A DNA stretch of 64,000 bases from Patescibacteria group bacterium (lineage in GTDB: Bacteria > Patescibacteriota > Minisyncoccia > Minisyncoccales > JANBVM01). Shown piece after piece: positions 21,268 through 43,446 of this stretch. Each line of letters begins with the position of its first letter. The stretch's first letter is position 1. The DNA lies in assembly GCA_024238995.1 (NCBI GenBank), contig JANBVL010000003.1, positions 6,098-70,097 of the forward strand, in the 5' to 3' direction. The notes under the pieces were generated by a model, which was not told where the DNA came from, did no database searches, and was given only the letters and a program-made list of their open reading frames with translations. The position numbers were made by a program, and so were the translations under genes.

Positions 21268-21273
21268 AATTTG

Positions 21274-21344
21274 CTGGAGGGCTAGGATTCGAACCTAGAT
21301 CCCAGGTGCCAGAAACCTGTCGCCTACCATTAGCATACCCTCCA
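21274..21344 (-). tRNA. tRNA-Gln (anticodon CUG)
   Basis: Folded by hand into a 71-nt cloverleaf. Acceptor stem UGGAGGG/CCCUCCA with the U1-A72 pair typical of bacterial tRNA-Gln. Anticodon stem-loop CAGGU-UUCUGGC-ACCUG. T-arm CUAGG-UUCGAAU-CCUAG. CCA is not encoded. Confidence 0.9.
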
Positions 21345-24037: not shown

Positions 24038-24085
24038 ATTAAAAACATTATCATAAATTTATGTAAAATAAAAGAGAAATTTTTG

Positions 24086-24158
24086 AGCCAGTGGTCAGGA
24101 TTGAACTGACGGCCTAATACTTACGAAGTATTTGCTCTACCAACTGAGCTACACTGGC
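24086..24158 (-). tRNA. tRNA-Thr (anticodon CGU)
   Basis: 73-nt cloverleaf: GCCAGUG-UA-GCUC-AGUUGGUA-GAGC-A-AAUAC-UUCGUAA-GUAUU-AGGCC-GUCAG-UUCAAUC-CUGAC-CACUGGC-U. Confidence 0.9.
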
Positions 24159-24165
24159 AGCTATA

Positions 24166-24236
24166 AGCAGGTGACGGGAATCGAACCCGCGTAACTTGCT
24201 TGGGAAGCAAGCACACTGCCATTATGTTACACCTGC
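24166..24236 (-). tRNA. tRNA-Gly (anticodon CCC)
   Basis: 71-nt cloverleaf with acceptor GCAGGUG/CACCUGC, anticodon arm CUUGC-UUCCCAA-GCAAG and T-loop UUCGAUU. Confidence 0.9.
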
Positions 24237-28295: not shown

Positions 28296-28649
28296 TCCTA
28301 ACAAGCCGGGTAATTACTCTTTATTGAAAAATAAAGGGAGGAAAGTCCGAACACTTACTCTCCATTTGTTGGGGGTTAAAAAGATAGCGGCTAACAGCCG
28401 TCGCTCTGGATAATATAACTAGAGTAGAGGTGCGAACAGAGACGTGTTAAGTTGAAAAACTTAGCAACCCGCAATAGCGGGATAGCCCTACAGCAATGTA
28501 GGGGTGAAACGGCTAAATCCTTATCAGGTGCAAGAACAAATCTTTTGGTAAACCCAAAAGAGCAAAGTAGTTCGCATGAGCTCTGAGGCAACTCAAAGCC
28601 AAGATAAATGATTACCTAAAACAGAATTCGGCTTATGGGCTTGTTAGGA
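28296..28649 (+). ncRNA. rnpB: RNase P RNA, bacterial type A
   Basis: Universal motifs GGAGGAAAGUCCGAAC (CR-I/P4) and ACAGAAUUCGGCUUAU (CR-V) are present. P1 pairs UCCUAACAAGCC (28296-28307) with GGCUUGUUAGGA (28638-28649). Confidence 0.9.
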
Positions 28650-28650
28650 T

Positions 28651-28686
28651 AACCAAAAACCGCGTCGTTACACGTGGTTTTTGGTT
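28651..28686. terminator. bidirectional hairpin terminator between rnpB (+) and rnhA (-)
   Basis: A 14-bp stem AACCAAAAACCGCG / CGUGGUUUUUGGUU (one G-U pair) with an 8-nt loop. The U-rich 3' arm is present in either orientation. Confidence 0.6.
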
Positions 28687-36192: not shown

Positions 36193-36432
36193 TTAAAATT
36201 TATAAGTGTCTTCTCGACGACGATCTATAACAAGAATAAAAATATCATCATTCTCAAGACGATAAATCACTCTTAAATCACCTTTTCTTATCCTGAAAAT
36301 GTCATCTCTTCCTTTAAGTTTCTTTATATCCAAGCCTTGAACATTTTTAGAATGTAATTTCTTTAAAACAAACTCAATCTGCTTTTTCTCTTTAGCATTA
36401 AATTTTTGTAATGCCTTTCTGATTTCATCCAT
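36193..36432 (-). CDS. type II toxin, RelE/ParE family
   Basis: 79 aa. FRIRKGDLRVIYRLENDDIFILVIDRRREDTYK is the typical RelE-fold C-terminal pattern. The gene lies 5 nt downstream of the antitoxin. Confidence 0.8.
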   Translation of the reverse strand: MDEIRKALQKFNAKEKKQIEFVLKKLHSKNVQGLDIKKLKGRDDIFRIRKGDLRVIYRLENDDIFILVIDRRREDTYKF

Positions 36433-36437
36433 AGAAA

Positions 36438-36659
36438 CTACAAACGAGAAAGTAATTTATCAATAGGAACTCCCTTTTTTTCTATTTTTGTAAAATCAAC
36501 AACACGTTCCCATAATTCAGGCTCATCTTCAGGAGAAGATATTTTAAGTACTGGTTTGGAACGACGAACTACAATAAAAGATTTTCCTTTTTTAACCTCG
36601 GAAAGATAAGTTTCTATATTCTCTCTTAATTCTTTTAATCCTACGATTGAATTTTTCAT
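36438..36659 (-). CDS. type II antitoxin, Phd/YefM family
   Basis: 73 aa with a Phd/YefM-like N-terminus, LKELRENIETYLSEVKKGKSFIVVRRSKPVLKI. Confidence 0.75.
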   Translation of the reverse strand: MKNSIVGLKELRENIETYLSEVKKGKSFIVVRRSKPVLKISSPEDEPELWERVVDFTKIEKKGVPIDKLLSRL

Positions 36660-39191: not shown

Positions 39192-39221
39192 AAAAAAAAA
39201 CAGAAGAGCAAGACTTCTTCT
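39192..39221 (-). terminator. intrinsic terminator ending the polyamine operon
   Basis: The RNA reads AGAAGA-AGUCUUGC-UCUUCU followed by G and nine U. Confidence 0.5.
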
Positions 39222-39234
39222 AGCAAGAAGTAAA

Positions 39235-40212
39235 TCAGGATCTCTTTAAAGAAACTTGGATTTTAATCTGAGAAATGATCTTTTCAAACAGTCCTTTATT
39301 ATCTTGACCTAATTGTTCTGGAAAAAACAATCCTTTTTGAGAAATATTTTTACTCAAAACTTCTTTTGCTAAAACTGTTGGGAAAATTGCTGTAATTTTT
39401 TGCATTGAATTTAATGATTCATTTTTCTTTGAAATTGATTTCATCTTCCAAGTAATTTGTTTTTTATCAGTTTTAATTTTAATTATTCCAACAGTTAAAT
39501 TATCTTGTTTCTTAGACTCTAATTTTTTTGCTGTAGATCCAATATTCTCATCTTTTAATAGATTTTTATTATTTAAAGATTTAAAAAATTCATGAAAACC
39601 TAAATTCCTAATTATCCTATAACTCATATTTTTAACCTTTAAATTATCGATTAAAGAGCCTAATCCTTCAGCCAAATATGTTTCAGAATTAATTCCTTGA
39701 ATTTTTTGTTTCTTATAATCAGAAAAAGGTTTTACTTTAACTTTTTTTCCATTTTTAATTAATATTGGCTCTAGCTGATGTCCTTCTATTAAATCTTCAA
39801 AGCACCATAGGAATGGAAATGAGTTTTTTTGTCCTGACAAACTTCCTGCTGAAATTTCGATTTGTTTAACTTTATTCTGTCTTGCTTCCCTGCCACATAT
39901 AAAATTAATAAGTCCTGGAGAAAAACCAGCAAAAGGAATTACTAAAATTCCTGCTTTTTTAATTTTGTTTTCGTTTTCTAAATAAAATTCATAATCTAAA
40001 TCAGAAATATCAATAAAATCTTTCTTATGCTTCAAAGCTAGTTTCAAACCAAGCTCTCCGATATCACCAGGCAAAGCTGAAATTATTAAATCAGCATTTT
40101 TAACATTTTCTTCTGAATTAAAAAAACAAGCTTTTGTCTTGCTTTTTTCACGCCTTAAATAATGAATAAGTGCTTTCCCTATTCTTCCTTTCCCCAGAAT
40201 TAAAACTTTCAT
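39235..40212 (-). CDS. saccharopine-dehydrogenase-family NAD(P) oxidoreductase, polyamine-operon associated
   Basis: 325 aa with an N-terminal Rossmann motif (KVLILGKGRIGKA) and GFSPGLINF, typical of saccharopine or carboxy(nor)spermidine dehydrogenase folds. Its start overlaps the speE stop (ATGA). Confidence 0.5.
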   Translation of the reverse strand: MKVLILGKGRIGKALIHYLRREKSKTKACFFNSEENVKNADLIISALPGDIGELGLKLALKHKKDFIDISDLDYEFYLENENKIKKAGILVIPFAGFSPGLINFICGREARQNKVKQIEISAGSLSGQKNSFPFLWCFEDLIEGHQLEPILIKNGKKVKVKPFSDYKKQKIQGINSETYLAEGLGSLIDNLKVKNMSYRIIRNLGFHEFFKSLNNKNLLKDENIGSTAKKLESKKQDNLTVGIIKIKTDKKQITWKMKSISKKNESLNSMQKITAIFPTVLAKEVLSKNISQKGLFFPEQLGQDNKGLFEKIISQIKIQVSLKRS

Positions 40213-41102
40213 TTTATTTTATAAGCTTCAGGTAAAACCATACTAGCTTTATGGATTTCTGGAGAATAATATTTAAACTTGTGTTTTTTAGCTAATTTAT
40301 CAAACTTACCTTGTATTTTTTTAAAATTAATTTTTCCCAAATCTATGCTTTCAGAACCAGCAATAAAACTATATTCTCCGCAATGATAAGACGGCACAGT
40401 AAATCTGTAAATAACAGTGTTAGAAAAGATTGCTTTTATTCCTTTAAAAATCTTTTTAATTAGAGTATTAAAATCTAAAAAAGAAGCTCCCAAAGTAATA
40501 ATAATTCCATGTTTAGTCAAAGATTTTAAAACCTGATTATAAAACACTTTAGTGTATAAAGGAGAAGACAAGCCCTGATATTCTAAATTCGTACAATCAA
40601 TAATTACTGCATCATAATGATTAATATGTTTTTTAATAAAATCTTGCCCTGGTTCAATGTAAACATTAACCCTTTTATCAGAAAAAGATTTTTTATTAAT
40701 AGAAATAAGATGTTTTTTACAAATCTTTATAAACTCCTCATCCAGCTCAACTAAATCTACTTTTTTAACATTATGCTTTAAAACTTCTCTTAAAATACAA
40801 CCATCACCTCCCCCAATAATTAAAATATTTTTAGGGTTGGGGTGGGAAAACATTACTGGATGAACCATTATCTCGTGGTAAATAAACTCATCTTTTTGAG
40901 ATAATTGATTGATGCCATCTAAAAAAAGAATTCTACCATATAAGTCATTATCAAAAATCAAAACATTCTGGAACTTGGTTTTTCCTTTAAATATTAATTT
41001 ATCAATAGAAAAACAATGTTCTATTGTTTTTTTTCGTTTTCCAGGAAGTGATTTTTCACAAAACCACTTTTTTTTAGAGATAGGCATAAAACGGCTTATC
41101 AA
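40209..41102 (-). CDS. speE: spermidine synthase (polyamine aminopropyltransferase)
   Basis: 297 aa with IIGGGDGCILREVLKH, DLVELDEEF and DAVIIDCTN motifs. Confidence 0.85.
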   Translation of the reverse strand: MISRFMPISKKKWFCEKSLPGKRKKTIEHCFSIDKLIFKGKTKFQNVLIFDNDLYGRILFLDGINQLSQKDEFIYHEIMVHPVMFSHPNPKNILIIGGGDGCILREVLKHNVKKVDLVELDEEFIKICKKHLISINKKSFSDKRVNVYIEPGQDFIKKHINHYDAVIIDCTNLEYQGLSSPLYTKVFYNQVLKSLTKHGIIITLGASFLDFNTLIKKIFKGIKAIFSNTVIYRFTVPSYHCGEYSFIAGSESIDLGKINFKKIQGKFDKLAKKHKFKYYSPEIHKASMVLPEAYKIK

Positions 41103-42201
41103 ACTTAACTCTTCTTGGTCTTTTACCCAGATAATTGAAAATGTATAAAGCAGCGCCTAATTTAGGTGATTTTTCAATAGTTTTTTTATTAATAAATTTA
41201 GTCATTCTTTTTAAAACAACTTCATCTTCCTTGTACAACTTAATATGAGGGTAATAAACTTTATTTAGAATCAATTCATTAATAATTAGATTATTTTTTG
41301 AAAAGAATTCTTGCAGAAACAAAAACCTATTTCCTATTGCCTCATCTCCTATCTCTAAAAACACAAAGCCACCATCTTTTCCTAACTGATCTGTGCCAAA
41401 CTTAATAAATGTTTTGATTCCATCTTCTGTATAAATTGGGTTGGCTAAAAATCCAACAAAGTTTTCTTTTAAATCTTTTTTCTTACTTAAATCAACTTTT
41501 TTAGTTTTAATTTTTAAGTCAAACTTCTTGGCCAAGATATCAATACATTCTAAAAGTTGAGTATCAATGTCAATTGCCAGGCATTCAATATTTGGATCAG
41601 CTAAAGTCAGAATAACTGAAATAAAGTCATCATCACCGACAAGTAGAAACTTTTTGTTAAAAGGAATCTTTGCAAGTATTTTCTCTGCAACAAAAAATGC
41701 AGATTCAGCTGATATTGGCATTTGGTCCCATTTAGCTTTAACTTTAAATCTTTCAAACTTTTTAAATAAATTAATAACTGCTTGTTTGTCTTGAGCTTTA
41801 ATTTTTAATTTCTTTTCAACAACACTTTTAATCTGTTTGGCGGTTTGAGGTTTGGGAATAAACTTTTCAATTCTTTTTTTAAGTAAAGTAGTTTTTCCAT
41901 TTCTTGAAACTTTAATTATTTTTTCATCTGTTAAAAGTTTCAGATAAGGATATAGATCCCAGTCTTCTAAGGCTTCTTTTGTAATAAATTCAAAAACATT
42001 GTCAGAATAAATTATTGTTTTGATGTCATGCAAAAACCCTAAGAATGTAGGTTTGTAATAATTATCATAAAACTCACCAAGAATCTTATCTGACACCTTC
42101 AAATCCTCAAGGCTTGTTGAGTGCTTTTTTCTGTCTTCAATAAACCTTGTTTTCTGAGATTTTAAAAATCTGATATATAGTTTTTTAAAATATTTTTCCA
42201 T
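41074..42201 (-). CDS. DUF43/BpsA-like aminopropyltransferase (branched-chain polyamine synthase homologue)
   Basis: 375 aa. LLVGDDDFISVILTL, LAIDIDTQLLECI and FVGFLANPIYTEDGIKTFIKFG align by eye with the recalled BpsA blocks VLGDDDLTSVAL, VLDIDERL and FDTFITDPPETVEAIRAFVGRG. The DPP triad is replaced by NPI. Confidence 0.6.
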   Translation of the reverse strand: MEKYFKKLYIRFLKSQKTRFIEDRKKHSTSLEDLKVSDKILGEFYDNYYKPTFLGFLHDIKTIIYSDNVFEFITKEALEDWDLYPYLKLLTDEKIIKVSRNGKTTLLKKRIEKFIPKPQTAKQIKSVVEKKLKIKAQDKQAVINLFKKFERFKVKAKWDQMPISAESAFFVAEKILAKIPFNKKFLLVGDDDFISVILTLADPNIECLAIDIDTQLLECIDILAKKFDLKIKTKKVDLSKKKDLKENFVGFLANPIYTEDGIKTFIKFGTDQLGKDGGFVFLEIGDEAIGNRFLFLQEFFSKNNLIINELILNKVYYPHIKLYKEDEVVLKRMTKFINKKTIEKSPKLGAALYIFNYLGKRPRRVKFDKPFYAYL

Positions 42202-42205
42202 TGTT

Positions 42206-42601
42206 TTAAGCTTTGCCTCTTTTTACTTTCTGAATTTCAATTTTCTTAGGGACAAATACACTTTTTAAATAATCTAAAGCCTTATCGGGAGCAGATTTAT
42301 CACCACAAGTAAAAATATCAATAGCAACATAATTGTATTCAGGCCAAGAATGAAGTGTAAGATGACTTTCAGCTAATAAAACAACCCCAGTGATTCCCTG
42401 CGGTTCAAATTTATGGATTACAATTTTTAAAGGAGTACAATTAGCTTTTTTTACTGCTCTGATGAGAATTTCTTTGATTTCTTTCTTATCTTCAATAATT
42501 CTGCCATTCCAAAATTCAGCGATCAGATGAACGCCTGCGTGTTGAAATTTATTTTTTGTATCTATGGTCCATTTAATAGACCTCTTTGTTTTTGTGTTCA
42601 T
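42206..42601 (-). CDS. speH: S-adenosylmethionine decarboxylase proenzyme (class 1, SpeH/SpeD)
   Basis: The ORF-track start (42613) is TTG. ATG at 42601 gives MNTKTKRS... The self-processing site LLAESHLTLHSWPE (E|S cleavage yields the pyruvoyl group) is present. Confidence 0.85.
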   Translation of the reverse strand: MNTKTKRSIKWTIDTKNKFQHAGVHLIAEFWNGRIIEDKKEIKEILIRAVKKANCTPLKIVIHKFEPQGITGVVLLAESHLTLHSWPEYNYVAIDIFTCGDKSAPDKALDYLKSVFVPKKIEIQKVKRGKA

Positions 42602-42610
42602 AGTTTTAGT

Positions 42611-42705
42611 CAATCGCTTTATCTTTCAGCACTAATTAATGCTGAAAAACTCGCTCAACAACTTGTAGGTTGTTGAGAAAAACAAAGAGTTAAAAAAAGC
42701 GATTG
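42611..42705 (-). promoter_or_regulatory. structured three-way-junction RNA leader upstream of speH
   Basis: There are three perfect helices. P1 is 10 bp (42611-42620 with 42696-42705). One hairpin is 9 bp (42654-42662 with 42669-42677). The other is 8 bp (42624-42631 with 42640-42647). The P1 3' strand ends 9 nt before the AUG. Confidence 0.4.
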
Positions 42706-43263: not shown

Positions 43264-43446
43264 TTATCTCTTTTTTCTTCTTCTCTTTGCTGGTTTTCTT
43301 TTAGTTGCTTTCTTTCTTTTCTTTGCTGGCTTTCTTTTTCTTGCGACTTTTCTTCTCTTTGCTGGCTTTCTTTTTCTTGCGACTTTTCTTCTTTTAGTTG
43401 TTTTCCTTTTTTTTGGTGCAGCTTTCTTTCTTTTTCTTTTTACCAT
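43264..43446 (-). CDS. histone-H1-like Lys/Arg/Pro/Ala repeat protein (60 aa)
   Basis: About 70 percent K+R, with the repeated unit KRKPAKRRKVAR. It is encoded by a tandem DNA repeat. Confidence 0.6.
   Translation of the reverse strand: MVKRKRKKAAPKKRKTTKRRKVARKRKPAKRRKVARKRKPAKKRKKATKRKPAKRRRKKR
43321..43392 (-). repeat. two perfect 36-bp tandem copies inside the H1-like gene
   Basis: ctttgctggctttctttttcttgcgacttttcttct occurs at 43321-43356 and again at 43357-43392. Degenerate copies flank both sides. Confidence 0.9.

What the first reader, a model, noticed from the sequence alone, without database searches (positions are those of the whole stretch)
39235..42601. Four-gene polyamine operon combining SpeH and SpeE with a BpsA-like (DUF43) enzyme and a saccharopine-dehydrogenase-like protein
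The gene order is speH, bpsA-like, speE, SDH-like, with overlapping or near-touching boundaries and a terminator at 39192-39221. BpsA homologues make branched-chain polyamines and are best known from hyperthermophiles, so finding one in this genome type is unexpected. Here the recalled DPP triad is NPI (FLANPIYTEDG), which suggests altered chemistry. The short SDH-family oxidoreductase could add a carboxy(nor)spermidine- or homospermidine-like step. Together they predict long-chain, branched or otherwise non-standard polyamines.
Basis: partly seen in the sequence, partly recalled or inferred. Interest (0 to 1): 0.55.

Follow-up and report, generated by a model that had tools for sequence, protein, structure and literature searches.

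The report
Aminopropyl operon with two uncharacterised enzymes
A tiny-celled groundwater-type bacterium (Patescibacteria) carries a real, conserved four-gene operon that makes the aminopropyl donor and passes it to two transferases and an unusual dehydrogenase; two of these enzymes belong to unstudied subfamilies, so the product is probably a non-standard polyamine-like compound.

Summary
On the minus strand lie speH (42206-42601), a DUF43/BpsA-superfamily gene (41074-42201), speE (40209-41087) and a short saccharopine-dehydrogenase-family gene (39235-40212). The boundaries show a 4-nt gap, a 14-nt overlap and a 4-nt overlap. The claimed terminator is only a weak hairpin plus T9.

The DUF43 protein is homologous to BpsA and keeps the GDDD donor motif, Glu259 and Tyr290 equivalents. 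It belongs, however, to a separate Patescibacteria-type clade. That clade has an NP(P/I)YT motif instead of DP(P/V)ET, and a basic tail instead of the acidic aminopropyl-carrier tail. Its most constant neighbour is AdoMetDC (57 of 66 loci).

The dehydrogenase is not CASDH- or HSS-like. It is a trimmed relative of archaeal L-lysine 6-dehydrogenase (3ABI, TM 0.85-0.88). It lies directly after a special speE subclade in 54 of 55 genomes across several phyla, and in one genome it is fused to SpeE. Outside Patescibacteria a SET-domain gene follows it.

Best reading: two dcSAM-fed modules (speH + BpsA-like, speE + LysDH-like) make modified, possibly branched, polyamine-type products. The chemistry is untested. 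I found no paper describing either subfamily.

The parts
42206..42601 (-). speH: class 1b pyruvoyl S-adenosylmethionine decarboxylase, which makes dcSAM. The ORF is also open from a TTG at 42613.
   Evidence: PF02675 E=3.9e-37 and TIGR03330 equivalog 135 bits against a cutoff of 75.65. The processing and catalytic residues of T. maritima AdoMetDC (S63, H68, C83) and the AdoMetDC-specific Pro are all present in ESHLTLHSWPE...FTCGD (criteria from PMC10407285).
41074..42201 (-). BpsA-like (DUF43/PF01861) protein of a Patescibacteria-type clade. Predicted dcSAM-dependent aminopropyltransferase with an altered acceptor site.
   Evidence: PF01861 73 bits. AF2 model pLDDT 86.8. Foldseek top hits are BpsA structures 2qm3, 6j27 and 5xnc at E~1e-11. 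hhalign against canonical BpsA-type proteins gives probability 99.6%. GDDD 189-192 is invariant. N254-P-I-Y-T replaces D225-P-P-E-T. The C-terminal tail is basic.
40209..41087 (-). speE: aminopropyltransferase of the subclade that is always followed by the SDH-like gene. The ORF is also open from a TTG at 41102.
   Evidence: PF01564/PF17284, NF002010 and TIGR00417 just above their cutoffs. Best PDB matches are the B. subtilis and E. coli spermidine synthases, E~4e-49. Signature PSYHCGEY replaces P(T/S)YPSG, and the acceptor loop reads DCTNLE..GLS instead of DSTDPVGP.
39235..40212 (-). Short LysDH-like member of the saccharopine dehydrogenase family, and an obligate partner of speE. Predicted NAD(P)-dependent C-N oxidoreductase.
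   Evidence: PF16653 E=3e-09. 3ABI sequence match E=2e-30, or 1.9e-46 with the profile. AF2 pLDDT 92.4. Foldseek 3ABI TM 0.85-0.88, CASDHs TM ~0.78-0.80. Directly downstream of speE in 54 of 55 species genomes. Fused to SpeE in L063.
42654..42677 (-). Terminator-like hairpin after the upstream HPF gene. It marks the 5' boundary of the operon.
   Evidence: 9-bp stem with 4 GC pairs plus a T-rich tail, found by the consensus scan; sequence.
39192..39236 (-). Weak hairpin(s) followed by T9, between the SDH-like stop codon and the secA start (39173). Possible but unproven terminator.
   Evidence: Sequence. MFE -7.9 kcal/mol, z = -0.75 against shuffles. Not reported by the terminator scan.

Best explanation
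This is a real operon for aminopropyl-group metabolism, built from two modules that share one donor.

- SpeH decarboxylates SAM to dcSAM. This is shown at the level of family and catalytic residues.
- Module 1 is speH plus the BpsA-like protein. That protein is a dcSAM-dependent aminopropyltransferase of the DUF43/BpsA superfamily. Its donor site is conserved (GDDD, DQ, the ribose-binding Asp). Its acceptor site is remodelled: NP(P/I)YT replaces DP(P/V)ET, and a conserved basic/aromatic C-terminal tail, KFKKPxYAYL, replaces the acidic aminopropyl-carrier tail. I infer that it transfers the aminopropyl group directly, not through the BpsA ester-relay. The acceptor would be an amine that is less cationic than, or differently shaped from, spermidine's N4.
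- Module 2 is speE plus the short LysDH-like dehydrogenase. SpeE aminopropylates a primary amine. The dehydrogenase, translationally coupled to SpeE and elsewhere fused to it, makes or breaks a C-N bond with NAD(P)(H) in SpeE's substrate or product. It keeps the arginine that binds the substrate carboxylate in lysine dehydrogenase and saccharopine reductase. Its aldehyde partner is therefore most likely an amino-acid semialdehyde (ASA- or AASA-type) or a lysine-like skeleton.

The net product is a non-canonical, possibly branched or carboxylated, polyamine-type compound. Gene identities, synteny and residue conservation are shown. Substrates, reaction direction and products are inferred.
For: - Family assignments and catalytic residues.
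- BpsA homology: Foldseek ranks the BpsA structures four orders of magnitude ahead of generic methyltransferases. hhalign gives probability 99.6%, E=7e-25, over columns 91-365. GDDD is invariant, and the Glu259 and Tyr290 equivalents (E287, Y317) are conserved.
- dcSAM link: speH is the gene directly upstream of the BpsA-like gene in 57 of 66 metagenome loci with enough upstream sequence and in nearly all genome loci. A non-Patescibacteria DUF43 (P0413) is also glued to an AdoMetDC gene.
- Remodelled acceptor site: motif IV is NP(P/I/M)Y(T/N) in 33 of 41 clade representatives, against DPPYT or DPVET elsewhere. The 25-aa tail holds 0.9 acidic and 5.5 basic residues, against 4.6 acidic in canonical BpsA-type proteins. 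Residue roles are taken from PMC12979288.
- SpeE-SDH coupling: adjacency in 54 of 55 genomes, in Patescibacteria, Omnitrophota, Desulfobacterota/delta-proteobacteria, Spirochaetales, Nannocystaceae and Saprospiraceae. The genes have overlapping start and stop codons. L063 carries an SDH::SpeE fusion ORF. The SpeE signature PSY(H/S)CG is found in the SDH-linked SpeEs and is absent from the SpeE of L003, which has no SDH-like gene.
- LysDH-like nature. R202 aligns with R242 of LysEDH, the alpha-carboxylate binder (PMC6697735), and with R247 of saccharopine reductase. The aligned CASDH 4INA has no Arg at that position.
Against: - No enzymology exists for either subfamily. Every substrate statement is inference.
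- The two features that define the BpsA mechanism and specificity, Asp225 and the acidic C-terminal carrier, are missing. The protein may therefore not act on polyamines at all.
- An NPPY-type motif, a winged-helix N-domain and a mean net charge of +18 would also fit a macromolecular (nucleobase or protein) amine acceptor.
- In the more distant part of the clade, speH-bpsA pairs occur without speE or SDH nearby. The four genes are therefore not an indivisible unit.
- Two invariant arginines in the SDH-like protein argue against a purely cationic polyamine substrate.
- Archaeal LysDH homologues are not linked to polyamine genes.
- I could not check whether these genomes lack a diamine source.
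Confidence: 0.6

Rival explanations
1. The DUF43 protein is a functional BpsA orthologue that converts SpeE-made spermidine into N4-aminopropylspermidine and N4-bis(aminopropyl)spermidine. Branched-chain polyamines would then occur in a non-thermophilic Patescibacteria bacterium.
For: - Closest solved structures and profile matches are BpsA.
- GDDD and the Glu259 and Tyr290 equivalents are conserved.
- The gene sits in an operon with speH and speE, which would supply both substrates.
Against: - Asp225 is replaced by Asn across the clade.
- The acidic C-terminal carrier and specificity tail is replaced by a basic tail. PMC12979288 calls that tail the true aminopropyl carrier.
- The clade is separate from Tk/Tth BpsA and nearer to uncharacterised DPPYT DUF43 proteins.
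- Many clade members have speH but no speE nearby.
Confidence: 0.2
2. The BpsA-like protein aminopropylates (or alkylates) an exocyclic amine of a macromolecule, such as a nucleobase in RNA or DNA or a protein side chain, rather than a free polyamine.
For: - Motif IV is NPPY(T), the consensus of amino-group methyltransferases. That resemblance is from my own knowledge; the motif counts are.
- Foldseek also returns the tRNA m6A methyltransferase TrmM and small methyltransferase domains at TM ~0.5-0.6 (target-normalised).
- The protein has an N-terminal winged-helix-like domain and is very basic (mean net charge +18). Its tail is basic rather than acidic.
Against: - The strict GDDD motif and the near-constant speH neighbour point to dcSAM and the polyamine world.
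- High basicity is common in low-GC Patescibacteria proteomes (Lys 11% in this window).
- Canonical BpsA also has the winged-helix domain.
- No nucleic-acid aminopropylation of this kind is known.
Confidence: 0.1
3. The SDH-like protein is a carboxy(nor)spermidine or carboxyspermine dehydrogenase, or a homospermidine synthase. The operon would then be a hybrid dcSAM/ASA pathway of the kind described by Li et al. 2025.
For: - It belongs to the same superfamily. CASDH structures match at TM 0.78-0.80.
- Hybrid clusters that combine SpeD/SpeE with CASDH-type enzymes exist (PMC11999265).
- A carboxylate-binding Arg is retained.
Against: - The CASDH His-Glu-Glu triad aligns to A-(S/E)-G here (triad from PMC10413350).
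- Identity to CASDHs is only 14-16%, and the protein is about 70 aa shorter.
- No decarboxylase family recurs next to it in 55 loci.
- HSS is not among the top 50 structural matches.
- The closest relative by far is LysDH, at 27% identity.
Confidence: 0.1
4. The SDH-like protein is simply an L-lysine 6-dehydrogenase of amino-acid metabolism, and its position next to speE has no functional meaning.
For: The best sequence and structure match is the P. horikoshii enzyme annotated as L-lysine 6-dehydrogenase.
Against: - Adjacency to speE in 54 of 55 genomes across phyla, overlapping reading frames, and one fusion protein.
- The archaeal LysDH-type homologues lack this context.
- The family has its own invariant motifs (FPFLWCFED, LNSMQKIT, R199) and a trimmed Rossmann domain.
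- The Thr that binds the alpha-amino group in LysEDH is hydrophobic here.
Confidence: 0.03

Closest known systems
BpsA, N4-bis(aminopropyl)spermidine synthase (T. kodakarensis TK1691, T. thermophilus; PDB 5XNC, 6J27; Pfam PF01861)
   Same: - PF01861 catalytic domain, and the best fold match.
- Profile-profile homology that includes part of the N-terminal winged-helix domain.
- GDDD donor motif and the Glu259 and Tyr290 equivalents.
- A dcSAM context.
   Different: - Asn replaces Asp225 and Tyr replaces Glu in motif IV (NPIYT against DPPET).
- There is no acidic C-terminal carrier tail. A conserved basic/aromatic tail takes its place.
- About 90 extra N-terminal residues, and no CxxC element.
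- Only 16-19% identity.
- A separate monophyletic clade.
- The hosts are groundwater- or sediment-type Patescibacteria, not thermophiles.
L-lysine 6-dehydrogenase PH1688 of Pyrococcus horikoshii (PDB 3ABI) and G. stearothermophilus LysEDH
   Same: - Overall fold: TM 0.85-0.88, 26-27% identity.
- GxGxxG/A and GF(S/A)PGL motifs.
- The RxxG(F/H) arginine that binds the substrate carboxylate.
   Different: - The Rossmann domain lacks about one beta-alpha unit (22-35 residues).
- Own invariant motifs: WCFED, LNSMQKIT, and a second Arg.
- The Thr that binds the alpha-amino group is replaced by Ile or Val.
- Always encoded directly after speE, which the archaeal homologues are not.
Hybrid dcAdoMet/ASA polyamine clusters with CASDH/CAPADH + CASDC (Li et al. 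2025, PMC11999265)
   Same: An SDH-superfamily oxidoreductase is co-encoded with AdoMetDC and an aminopropyltransferase.
   Different: - No decarboxylase partner.
- The CASDH HEE triad is absent.
- The protein is much shorter and is of the LysDH type.
Canonical speD/speH-speE spermidine operon (e.g. E. coli speED, B. subtilis speE)
   Same: AdoMetDC plus a SpeE whose best PDB matches are the B. subtilis and E. coli spermidine synthases.
   Different: - Two extra enzymes are intercalated or appended.
- SpeE carries PSYHCGEY and a DCTN..E acceptor loop instead of P(T/S)YPSG and DSTDP.
Omnitrophota-type cluster speH-speE-SDH-like-SET (found here, uncharacterised)
   Same: The same speH, speE subclade and SDH-like family.
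   Different: A SET-domain methyltransferase follows the SDH-like gene in 41 of 55 loci, and no BpsA-like gene is present. Two metagenome contigs have both.

Membership tests
BpsA (EC 2.5.1.128) sensu stricto | PF01861 catalytic domain and BpsA fold | tested here: met
   73.3 bits against a cutoff of 27, although only model positions 12-191 of 243 are matched. Foldseek top 9 hits are BpsA structures at E~1e-11. hhalign probability 99.6%.
BpsA (EC 2.5.1.128) sensu stricto | GDDD motif (Tk G157-D160) that positions the dcSAM aminopropyl group | tested here: met
   G189-D190-D191-D192 is invariant in 24 of 24 aligned homologues and present in 39 of 41 clade representatives.
BpsA (EC 2.5.1.128) sensu stricto | Asp225 in motif IV (DPP/DPV-ET), which activates the acceptor amine | tested here: not met
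   Asp225 aligns with Asn254. The clade motif is NPPYT, NPIYT or NPPYN in 32 of 41 representatives.
BpsA (EC 2.5.1.128) sensu stricto | Glu259 and Tyr290 of the acceptor site | tested here: met
   E287 aligns with Glu259. It is at least 90% conserved in the close family and present in 28 of 41 across the clade. Y317-P318 is invariant and aligns with the canonical xYP. The Tyr316 equivalent is unclear.
BpsA (EC 2.5.1.128) sensu stricto | Flexible acidic C-terminal cluster (Tk E339-E345; a DEE motif in Tth) that carries the aminopropyl group | tested here: not met
   The last 25 residues hold 0.9 acidic and 5.5 basic residues on average (KFKKPxYAYL). BpsA-type proteins hold 4.6 acidic residues there (FYxD(D/E)ExW).
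BpsA (EC 2.5.1.128) sensu stricto | Groups phylogenetically with the characterised Tk and Tth BpsA | tested here: not met
   The clade is monophyletic and separate (41 representatives, no outsiders). Nearest neighbours are DPPYT-type DUF43 proteins at distance 0.75-0.78, against 0.85-0.91 to the Tk/Tth-like representatives. E-values jump from 1e-34 to 1e-22. The NJ tree is rough.
BpsA (EC 2.5.1.128) sensu stricto | Catalyses N4-aminopropylation of spermidine by a ping-pong mechanism | not testable with these tools
   Needs enzyme assays.
Class 1b AdoMetDC (SpeH/SpeD) | Equivalog-level family match, the pyruvoyl-forming Ser, catalytic His and Cys, and the AdoMetDC-specific Pro | tested here: met
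   TIGR03330 135 bits against 75.65. The S, H(+5), P(+8) and C(+20) pattern is present (criteria). The diagnostic residues for the ODC type could not be mapped, because that figure is not held.
SpeE aminopropyltransferase | Family models, the GGGDG dcSAM motif and the catalytic Asp of the D-(S/C)-T motif | tested here: met
   NF002010 and TIGR00417 are just above their cutoffs. GGGDG and IIDCT are present. The second acidic residue of DSTDP is Asn here, and 4 extra residues are inserted, so the acceptor specificity is uncertain.
Carboxy(nor)spermidine dehydrogenase (CASDH/CANSDH) | His-Glu-Glu catalytic triad (BfCASDH 228-230) | tested here: not met
   The HEE of 4INA aligns with A-(S/E)-G in this family (triad from PMC10413350).
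Carboxy(nor)spermidine dehydrogenase (CASDH/CANSDH) | Partner decarboxylase (CASDC) encoded with it | tested here: not met
   No decarboxylase family appears among the recurrent neighbours in 55 loci, and there is none in the window operon. Genes elsewhere in the genome could not be checked.
L-lysine 6-dehydrogenase (PH1688 type) | Closest sequence and structure relative, with full-length Rossmann and catalytic domains | tested here: inconclusive
   Best hit is 3ABI: E=2e-30 (1.9e-46 with the profile), TM 0.85-0.88. However, the Rossmann domain lacks 22-35 residues, the family has its own invariant motifs, and the genomic context differs.
L-lysine 6-dehydrogenase (PH1688 type) | Residues that bind the lysine alpha-carboxylate (Arg) and alpha-amino group (Thr, Tyr, His in LysEDH) | tested here: inconclusive
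   The Arg is conserved (R202). The Thr equivalent is Ile or Val. There is an extra invariant R199. The mapping comes from a sequence alignment to 3ABI and from the LysEDH residue numbers in PMC6697735, not from a structure superposition.
Bacterial homospermidine synthase | HSS fold and sequence similarity | tested here: not met
   There is no HSS entry among the 50 best Foldseek matches or among the PDB sequence hits.

The most novel reading that the evidence does not exclude
SpeE and the LysDH-like enzyme form a two-enzyme cycle that builds polyamines from SAM and ammonia alone.

- SpeE aminopropylates a carrier amine, either the epsilon-amine of lysine or putrescine.
- The dehydrogenase then cleaves the C-N bond on the carrier side, with saccharopine-reductase-type chemistry. 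This releases 1,3-diaminopropane (or norspermidine).
- The dehydrogenase regenerates the carrier by LysDH-type reductive amination.

This would be a route to all-aminopropyl polyamines that needs no amino-acid decarboxylase and no PLP, in ultra-small host-dependent bacteria (Patescibacteria, Omnitrophota). The BpsA-like enzyme (or the SET enzyme in Omnitrophota) would then branch or methylate the product, giving branched or long-chain-type polyamines outside thermophiles. It would also supply a candidate for the 'unknown dehydrogenase' invoked for norspermidine formation (PMC11107197).
Probability: 0.1. Interest if true: 0.85.

Novelty: new variant of a known kind. Interest (0 to 1): 0.6.

Why it matters
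- Branched-chain polyamines and BpsA are currently presented as signatures of thermophiles (PMC12979288). Here a whole clade of BpsA-superfamily enzymes is wired to AdoMetDC in non-thermophilic, ultra-small bacteria, with a different acceptor site. Either branched polyamines are more widespread than thought, or the DUF43 fold has a second, unknown aminopropyl-transfer function.
- Independently, the pairing of SpeE with a LysDH-like enzyme defines a candidate new step in polyamine metabolism. The pairing holds in 54 of 55 genomes across several phyla, includes one fusion, and has a SET or BpsA-like add-on.
- Omnitrophota are reported to lack PLP biosynthesis (PMC10407285), and I assume Patescibacteria are similarly limited.
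- Polyamine workers have explicitly postulated 'unknown dehydrogenases'.
- Both predictions can be tested directly with the E. coli delta-speD/speE expression and LC-MS system already used in the field.

Tried and rejected
- **Terminator at 39192-39221.** Folded and scanned. It is not better than shuffles, so I keep it only as 'possible'.
- **Riboswitch or other RNA element in the operon.** The Rfam gathering scan of the window found only RNase P RNA and three tRNAs.
- **LysDH-type enzymes as generally polyamine-linked.** The neighbourhoods of PH1688 and two other archaeal homologues hold no polyamine genes. Rejected.
- **CASDH or HSS membership for the SDH-like protein.** Rejected on the triad, the missing partner and the similarity levels.
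- **The speH gene as a neofunctionalised ornithine or arginine decarboxylase.** Catalytic residues, the Pro marker, the equivalog score and the SpeE/DUF43 partnership all favour a true AdoMetDC. The ODC-diagnostic positions could not be mapped.
- **Growth temperature from proteome composition.** The IVYWREL fraction of 0.406 gives about 45 C. This is ambiguous for a 31% GC genome and shows only that the organism is not hyperthermophile-like.
- **Naming the nearest non-Patescibacteria DUF43 relatives.** The cluster look-up returned no organism names or informative protein names. One relative (P0413) sits next to AdoMetDC, and another (P0411) is not polyamine-linked.
- **Literature.** Eight full-text searches found no paper on Patescibacteria BpsA-like proteins or on a SpeE plus short-SDH pair. 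The original LysDH structure paper is not held.
- **P0456.** This Thermococcales-like BpsA representative has an aberrant C-terminus, so I did not use it for the tail comparison.

Full report
**What is there**

The window is low-GC (about 31%). An exact protein match shows that it comes from a Patescibacteria (CPR) metagenome-assembled genome. Four ORFs lie head to tail on the minus strand.

- speH, 42206-42601. The ORF is also open from a TTG at 42613.
- A DUF43/BpsA-like gene, 41074-42201.
- speE, 40209-41087. The ORF is also open from a TTG at 41102. The ATG at 41087 reproduces the 14-nt overlap seen in the Nealsonbacteria homologue L001.
- A 325-aa saccharopine-dehydrogenase-family gene, 39235-40212.

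The boundaries are a 4-nt gap, a 14-nt overlap and a 4-nt ATGA-type overlap.

The family matches are strong:

| Gene | Matches |
|---|---|
| speH | PF02675 3.9e-37; TIGR03330 135 bits against a 75.65 cutoff |
| BpsA-like | PF01861 2.4e-20 |
| speE | PF01564 7.7e-46; NF002010 and TIGR00417 just above cutoff |
| SDH-like | PF16653 3.1e-09 |

A terminator-like hairpin after the upstream ribosome-hibernation-factor gene (42654-42677) marks the 5' edge of the operon. The scan did not detect it, and it is not more stable than shuffled sequence (z = -0.75). secA starts only about 19 nt after the T-run.

**Is the arrangement conserved?**

Yes. bpsA-speE-SDH, nearly always preceded by speH, recurs in 12 species genomes of Patescibacteria and in 28 metagenome contigs. 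Variants exist:

- speH-speE-bpsA without the SDH-like gene (L003).
- Tandem bpsA-like duplicates (L040, L114).
- Plain speH-bpsA pairs, in the more divergent part of the clade.

speH is directly upstream of the BpsA-like gene in 57 of 66 loci that have at least 450 nt of upstream sequence. In the close subclade (at least 380 bits to the window protein), speE follows in 18 of 22 loci and the SDH-like gene in 17 of 22 loci that have enough downstream sequence. In the distant subclade, speE follows in only 4 of 22.

**The BpsA-like protein**

It is a real but remote relative of BpsA.

- Single-sequence PDB hits are marginal (E~0.007). A family profile reaches 2.4e-09.
- An AlphaFold model (pLDDT 86.8) has the BpsA structures 2QM3, 6J27 and 5XNC as its top nine Foldseek hits, at E~1e-11. 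Generic methyltransferases start at 2e-07.
- hhalign against 14 canonical BpsA-type proteins gives probability 99.6% over columns 91-365.

A search of all 1.84 billion representative proteins shows a discrete clade. There are 49 clusters at E<=1e-30, and the full-length ones among them match across nearly the whole protein. A gap then follows down to 1e-22, where only the catalytic domain of other DUF43 proteins aligns.

In a rough NJ tree the clade is monophyletic. It lies nearer to uncharacterised 'DPPYT' DUF43 proteins than to the Tk/Tth BpsA-like representatives.

I took the residue roles from the 2026 BpsA review (PMC12979288) and compared them:

| BpsA feature | State here |
|---|---|
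| GDDD donor motif | Invariant |
| Glu259 and Tyr290 | Have equivalents (E287, Y317) |
| Asp225 | Asn254; clade motif IV is NPPYT/NPIYT, against DP(P/V)ET in BpsA proper |
| Acidic C-terminal aminopropyl-carrier tail | Replaced by a conserved basic/aromatic tail, KFKKPxYAYL (0.9 against 4.6 acidic residues in the last 25) |

The protein fails two defining BpsA features while keeping the donor site. Together with the near-constant AdoMetDC neighbour, this supports a dcSAM-dependent aminopropyltransferase with a different acceptor, and probably a direct rather than ester-relay mechanism. Whether the product is branched is open.

**The dehydrogenase**

Its best relative is the P. horikoshii L-lysine 6-dehydrogenase 3ABI.

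- Sequence: E=2e-30, or 1.9e-46 with the profile.
- Structure: the model has pLDDT 92.4 and matches at TM 0.85-0.88 with 27% identity.
- CASDHs, saccharopine reductase and AASS follow at TM 0.74-0.80 and 13-17% identity. No homospermidine synthase appears in the top 50.

Compared with 3ABI, its Rossmann domain lacks roughly one beta-alpha unit. It keeps GxGxxG/A and GFSPGL, and it has family-specific invariant motifs: FPFLWCFED, LNSMQKIT, R199 and R202.

The CASDH His-Glu-Glu triad (PMC10413350) aligns to A-(S/E)-G. R202 aligns with LysEDH R242, the alpha-carboxylate binder (PMC6697735), and with saccharopine reductase R247. The Thr that binds the alpha-amino group is Ile or Val here. This suggests a substrate that carries a carboxylate, such as an amino-acid semialdehyde or a lysine-like skeleton. 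That is an inference.

**The strongest new fact**

In a scan of one genome per species, 55 loci encode this short SDH-like family. In 54 of them it lies immediately downstream of speE on the same strand, usually with overlapping reading frames. The 55th locus begins at a contig end.

The hosts are Patescibacteria, many Omnitrophota, Desulfobacterales/delta-proteobacteria, Spirochaetales, Nannocystaceae and Saprospiraceae.

Further observations on this pairing:

- In the Nannocystaceae MAG, the SDH-like domain and a SpeE domain are fused in one 655-aa ORF.
- An AdoMetDC::SpeE fusion occurs in L056.
- The partner SpeEs share a signature, PSY(H/S)CG(C/S)EY, in place of the canonical P(T/S)YPSG. 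The L003 SpeE, which has no SDH-like partner, lacks it.
- Most of the Patescibacteria SpeEs that follow a BpsA-like gene, including the one in this window, also have a DCTN..E acceptor loop with a 4-residue insertion, instead of DSTDPVGP.
- Outside Patescibacteria, a SET-domain protein follows the SDH-like gene in 41 of 55 loci. Two metagenome contigs have both the BpsA-like and the SET gene.
- Archaeal LysDH homologues show no such context.
- No decarboxylase recurs in these neighbourhoods.

**How it most likely works**

- SpeH makes dcSAM. Its catalytic Ser, His and Cys and the AdoMetDC-specific Pro are present (criteria in PMC10407285).
- Two transferases draw on the dcSAM. SpeE aminopropylates a primary amine.
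- The LysDH-like enzyme is coupled to SpeE and sometimes fused to it. It performs an NAD(P)(H)-dependent C-N bond formation or cleavage on SpeE's substrate or product.
- The BpsA-like enzyme adds aminopropyl group(s) to a further amine.

Candidate reactions for the dehydrogenase, none of them tested:

- Reductive condensation of an amino-acid semialdehyde with a polyamine, giving carboxy-polyamine-type products.
- Cleavage of an N-aminopropylated carrier to release 1,3-diaminopropane or norspermidine. This would fit the 'unknown dehydrogenase' postulated in the polyamine literature (PMC11107197) and the PLP-poor lifestyle reported for Omnitrophota (PMC10407285).

**Comparison with what is known, and novelty**

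NCBI already labels the gene 'bis-aminopropyl spermidine synthase family protein'. Hybrid clusters of SDH-family and SpeE enzymes with CASDH and CASDC are published (PMC11999265). In eight full-text searches I found no paper on the Patescibacteria DUF43 clade or on the SpeE plus short-LysDH-like module.

I classify the finding as a new variant of a known kind: a polyamine-type operon that contains two uncharacterised enzyme subfamilies.

The host is not hyperthermophile-like. The IVYWREL fraction is 0.406, which gives about 45 C and is ambiguous for this GC content. Related MAGs come from groundwater, lake sediment and peat, judging by their record titles.

**Limits**

- There is no enzymology and no metabolite data.
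- Whole genomes could not be inspected for a diamine source.
- Residue mappings rest on sequence or profile alignments and on review text, not on superposed coordinates.
- The DUF43 tree is a quick NJ tree on 174 columns.

Noticed in passing
window 43264-43446 (-): A 60-aa ORF made almost entirely of Lys, Arg, Pro and Ala. It has a 36-bp (12-aa) tandem repeat, 3.2-3.8 copies at 84-88% matches. It lies between murB and the HPF gene. Small ORFs of 54-57 aa sit at the same place in L001 and L003. No Pfam match.
   Followed up: partly
window 36193-36659 (-): A ParE-toxin / Phd-YefM-antitoxin pair is inserted between the DUF1614 gene and secA. In the related locus L003, secA is followed directly by the DUF1614 gene, so the toxin-antitoxin pair looks like a local insertion.
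   Followed up: partly
L063 6001-7968 (Nannocystaceae MAG): A single 655-aa ORF fuses the short SDH-like domain to a divergent SpeE domain, and it is preceded by another speE. This is a Rosetta-stone link between the two families.
   Followed up: yes
L056 4526-5950 (Omnitrophota-type MAG): An AdoMetDC domain and a SpeE domain lie in one open reading frame, an apparent SpeH::SpeE fusion, directly upstream of the SDH-like gene.
   Followed up: partly
L007, L008, L030 and 38 other genome loci; L114 and L116: A 175-190-aa SET-domain protein is encoded immediately after the SDH-like gene in 41 of 55 genomes, all of them loci without a BpsA-like gene. Two metagenome contigs carry speH-bpsA-speE-SDH-SET. 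Its substrate is unknown. It may methylate the pathway product.
   Followed up: partly
L009, L029, L034, L043, L060: A second, distinct SpeE type (YE(F/Y/H)VYHEM ... CFPFDEC) sits upstream of the SDH-linked SpeE in several Desulfobacterales and Omnitrophota loci. In L060 it is the only SpeE next to the SDH-like gene.
   Followed up: no
L068 4525-6086: A non-Patescibacteria DUF43 protein (P0413, motif IV EPSDT) lies 3 nt after an AdoMetDC gene, with no speE within 5 kb. This suggests that DUF43 proteins can be the sole aminopropyltransferase partner of AdoMetDC.
   Followed up: partly
L003 7566-8366: A SAM hydroxide adenosyltransferase-family gene (PF01887/PF20257) lies just downstream of the speH-speE-bpsA cluster in a related Patescibacteria contig. 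It is another SAM-handling enzyme.
   Followed up: no
window 28298-28651 (+); 21273-21344, 24085-24236 (-): A bacterial class A RNase P RNA (115 bits) and tRNA-Gln, tRNA-Thr and tRNA-Gly genes. The RNase P RNA is on the strand opposite to most of the genes.
   Followed up: no
whole window: There is strong strand bias: 42 of 51 long ORFs are on the minus strand. GC skew is negative over most of the window, and it flips to about zero or positive at 18-20 kb and 48-56 kb.
   Followed up: no
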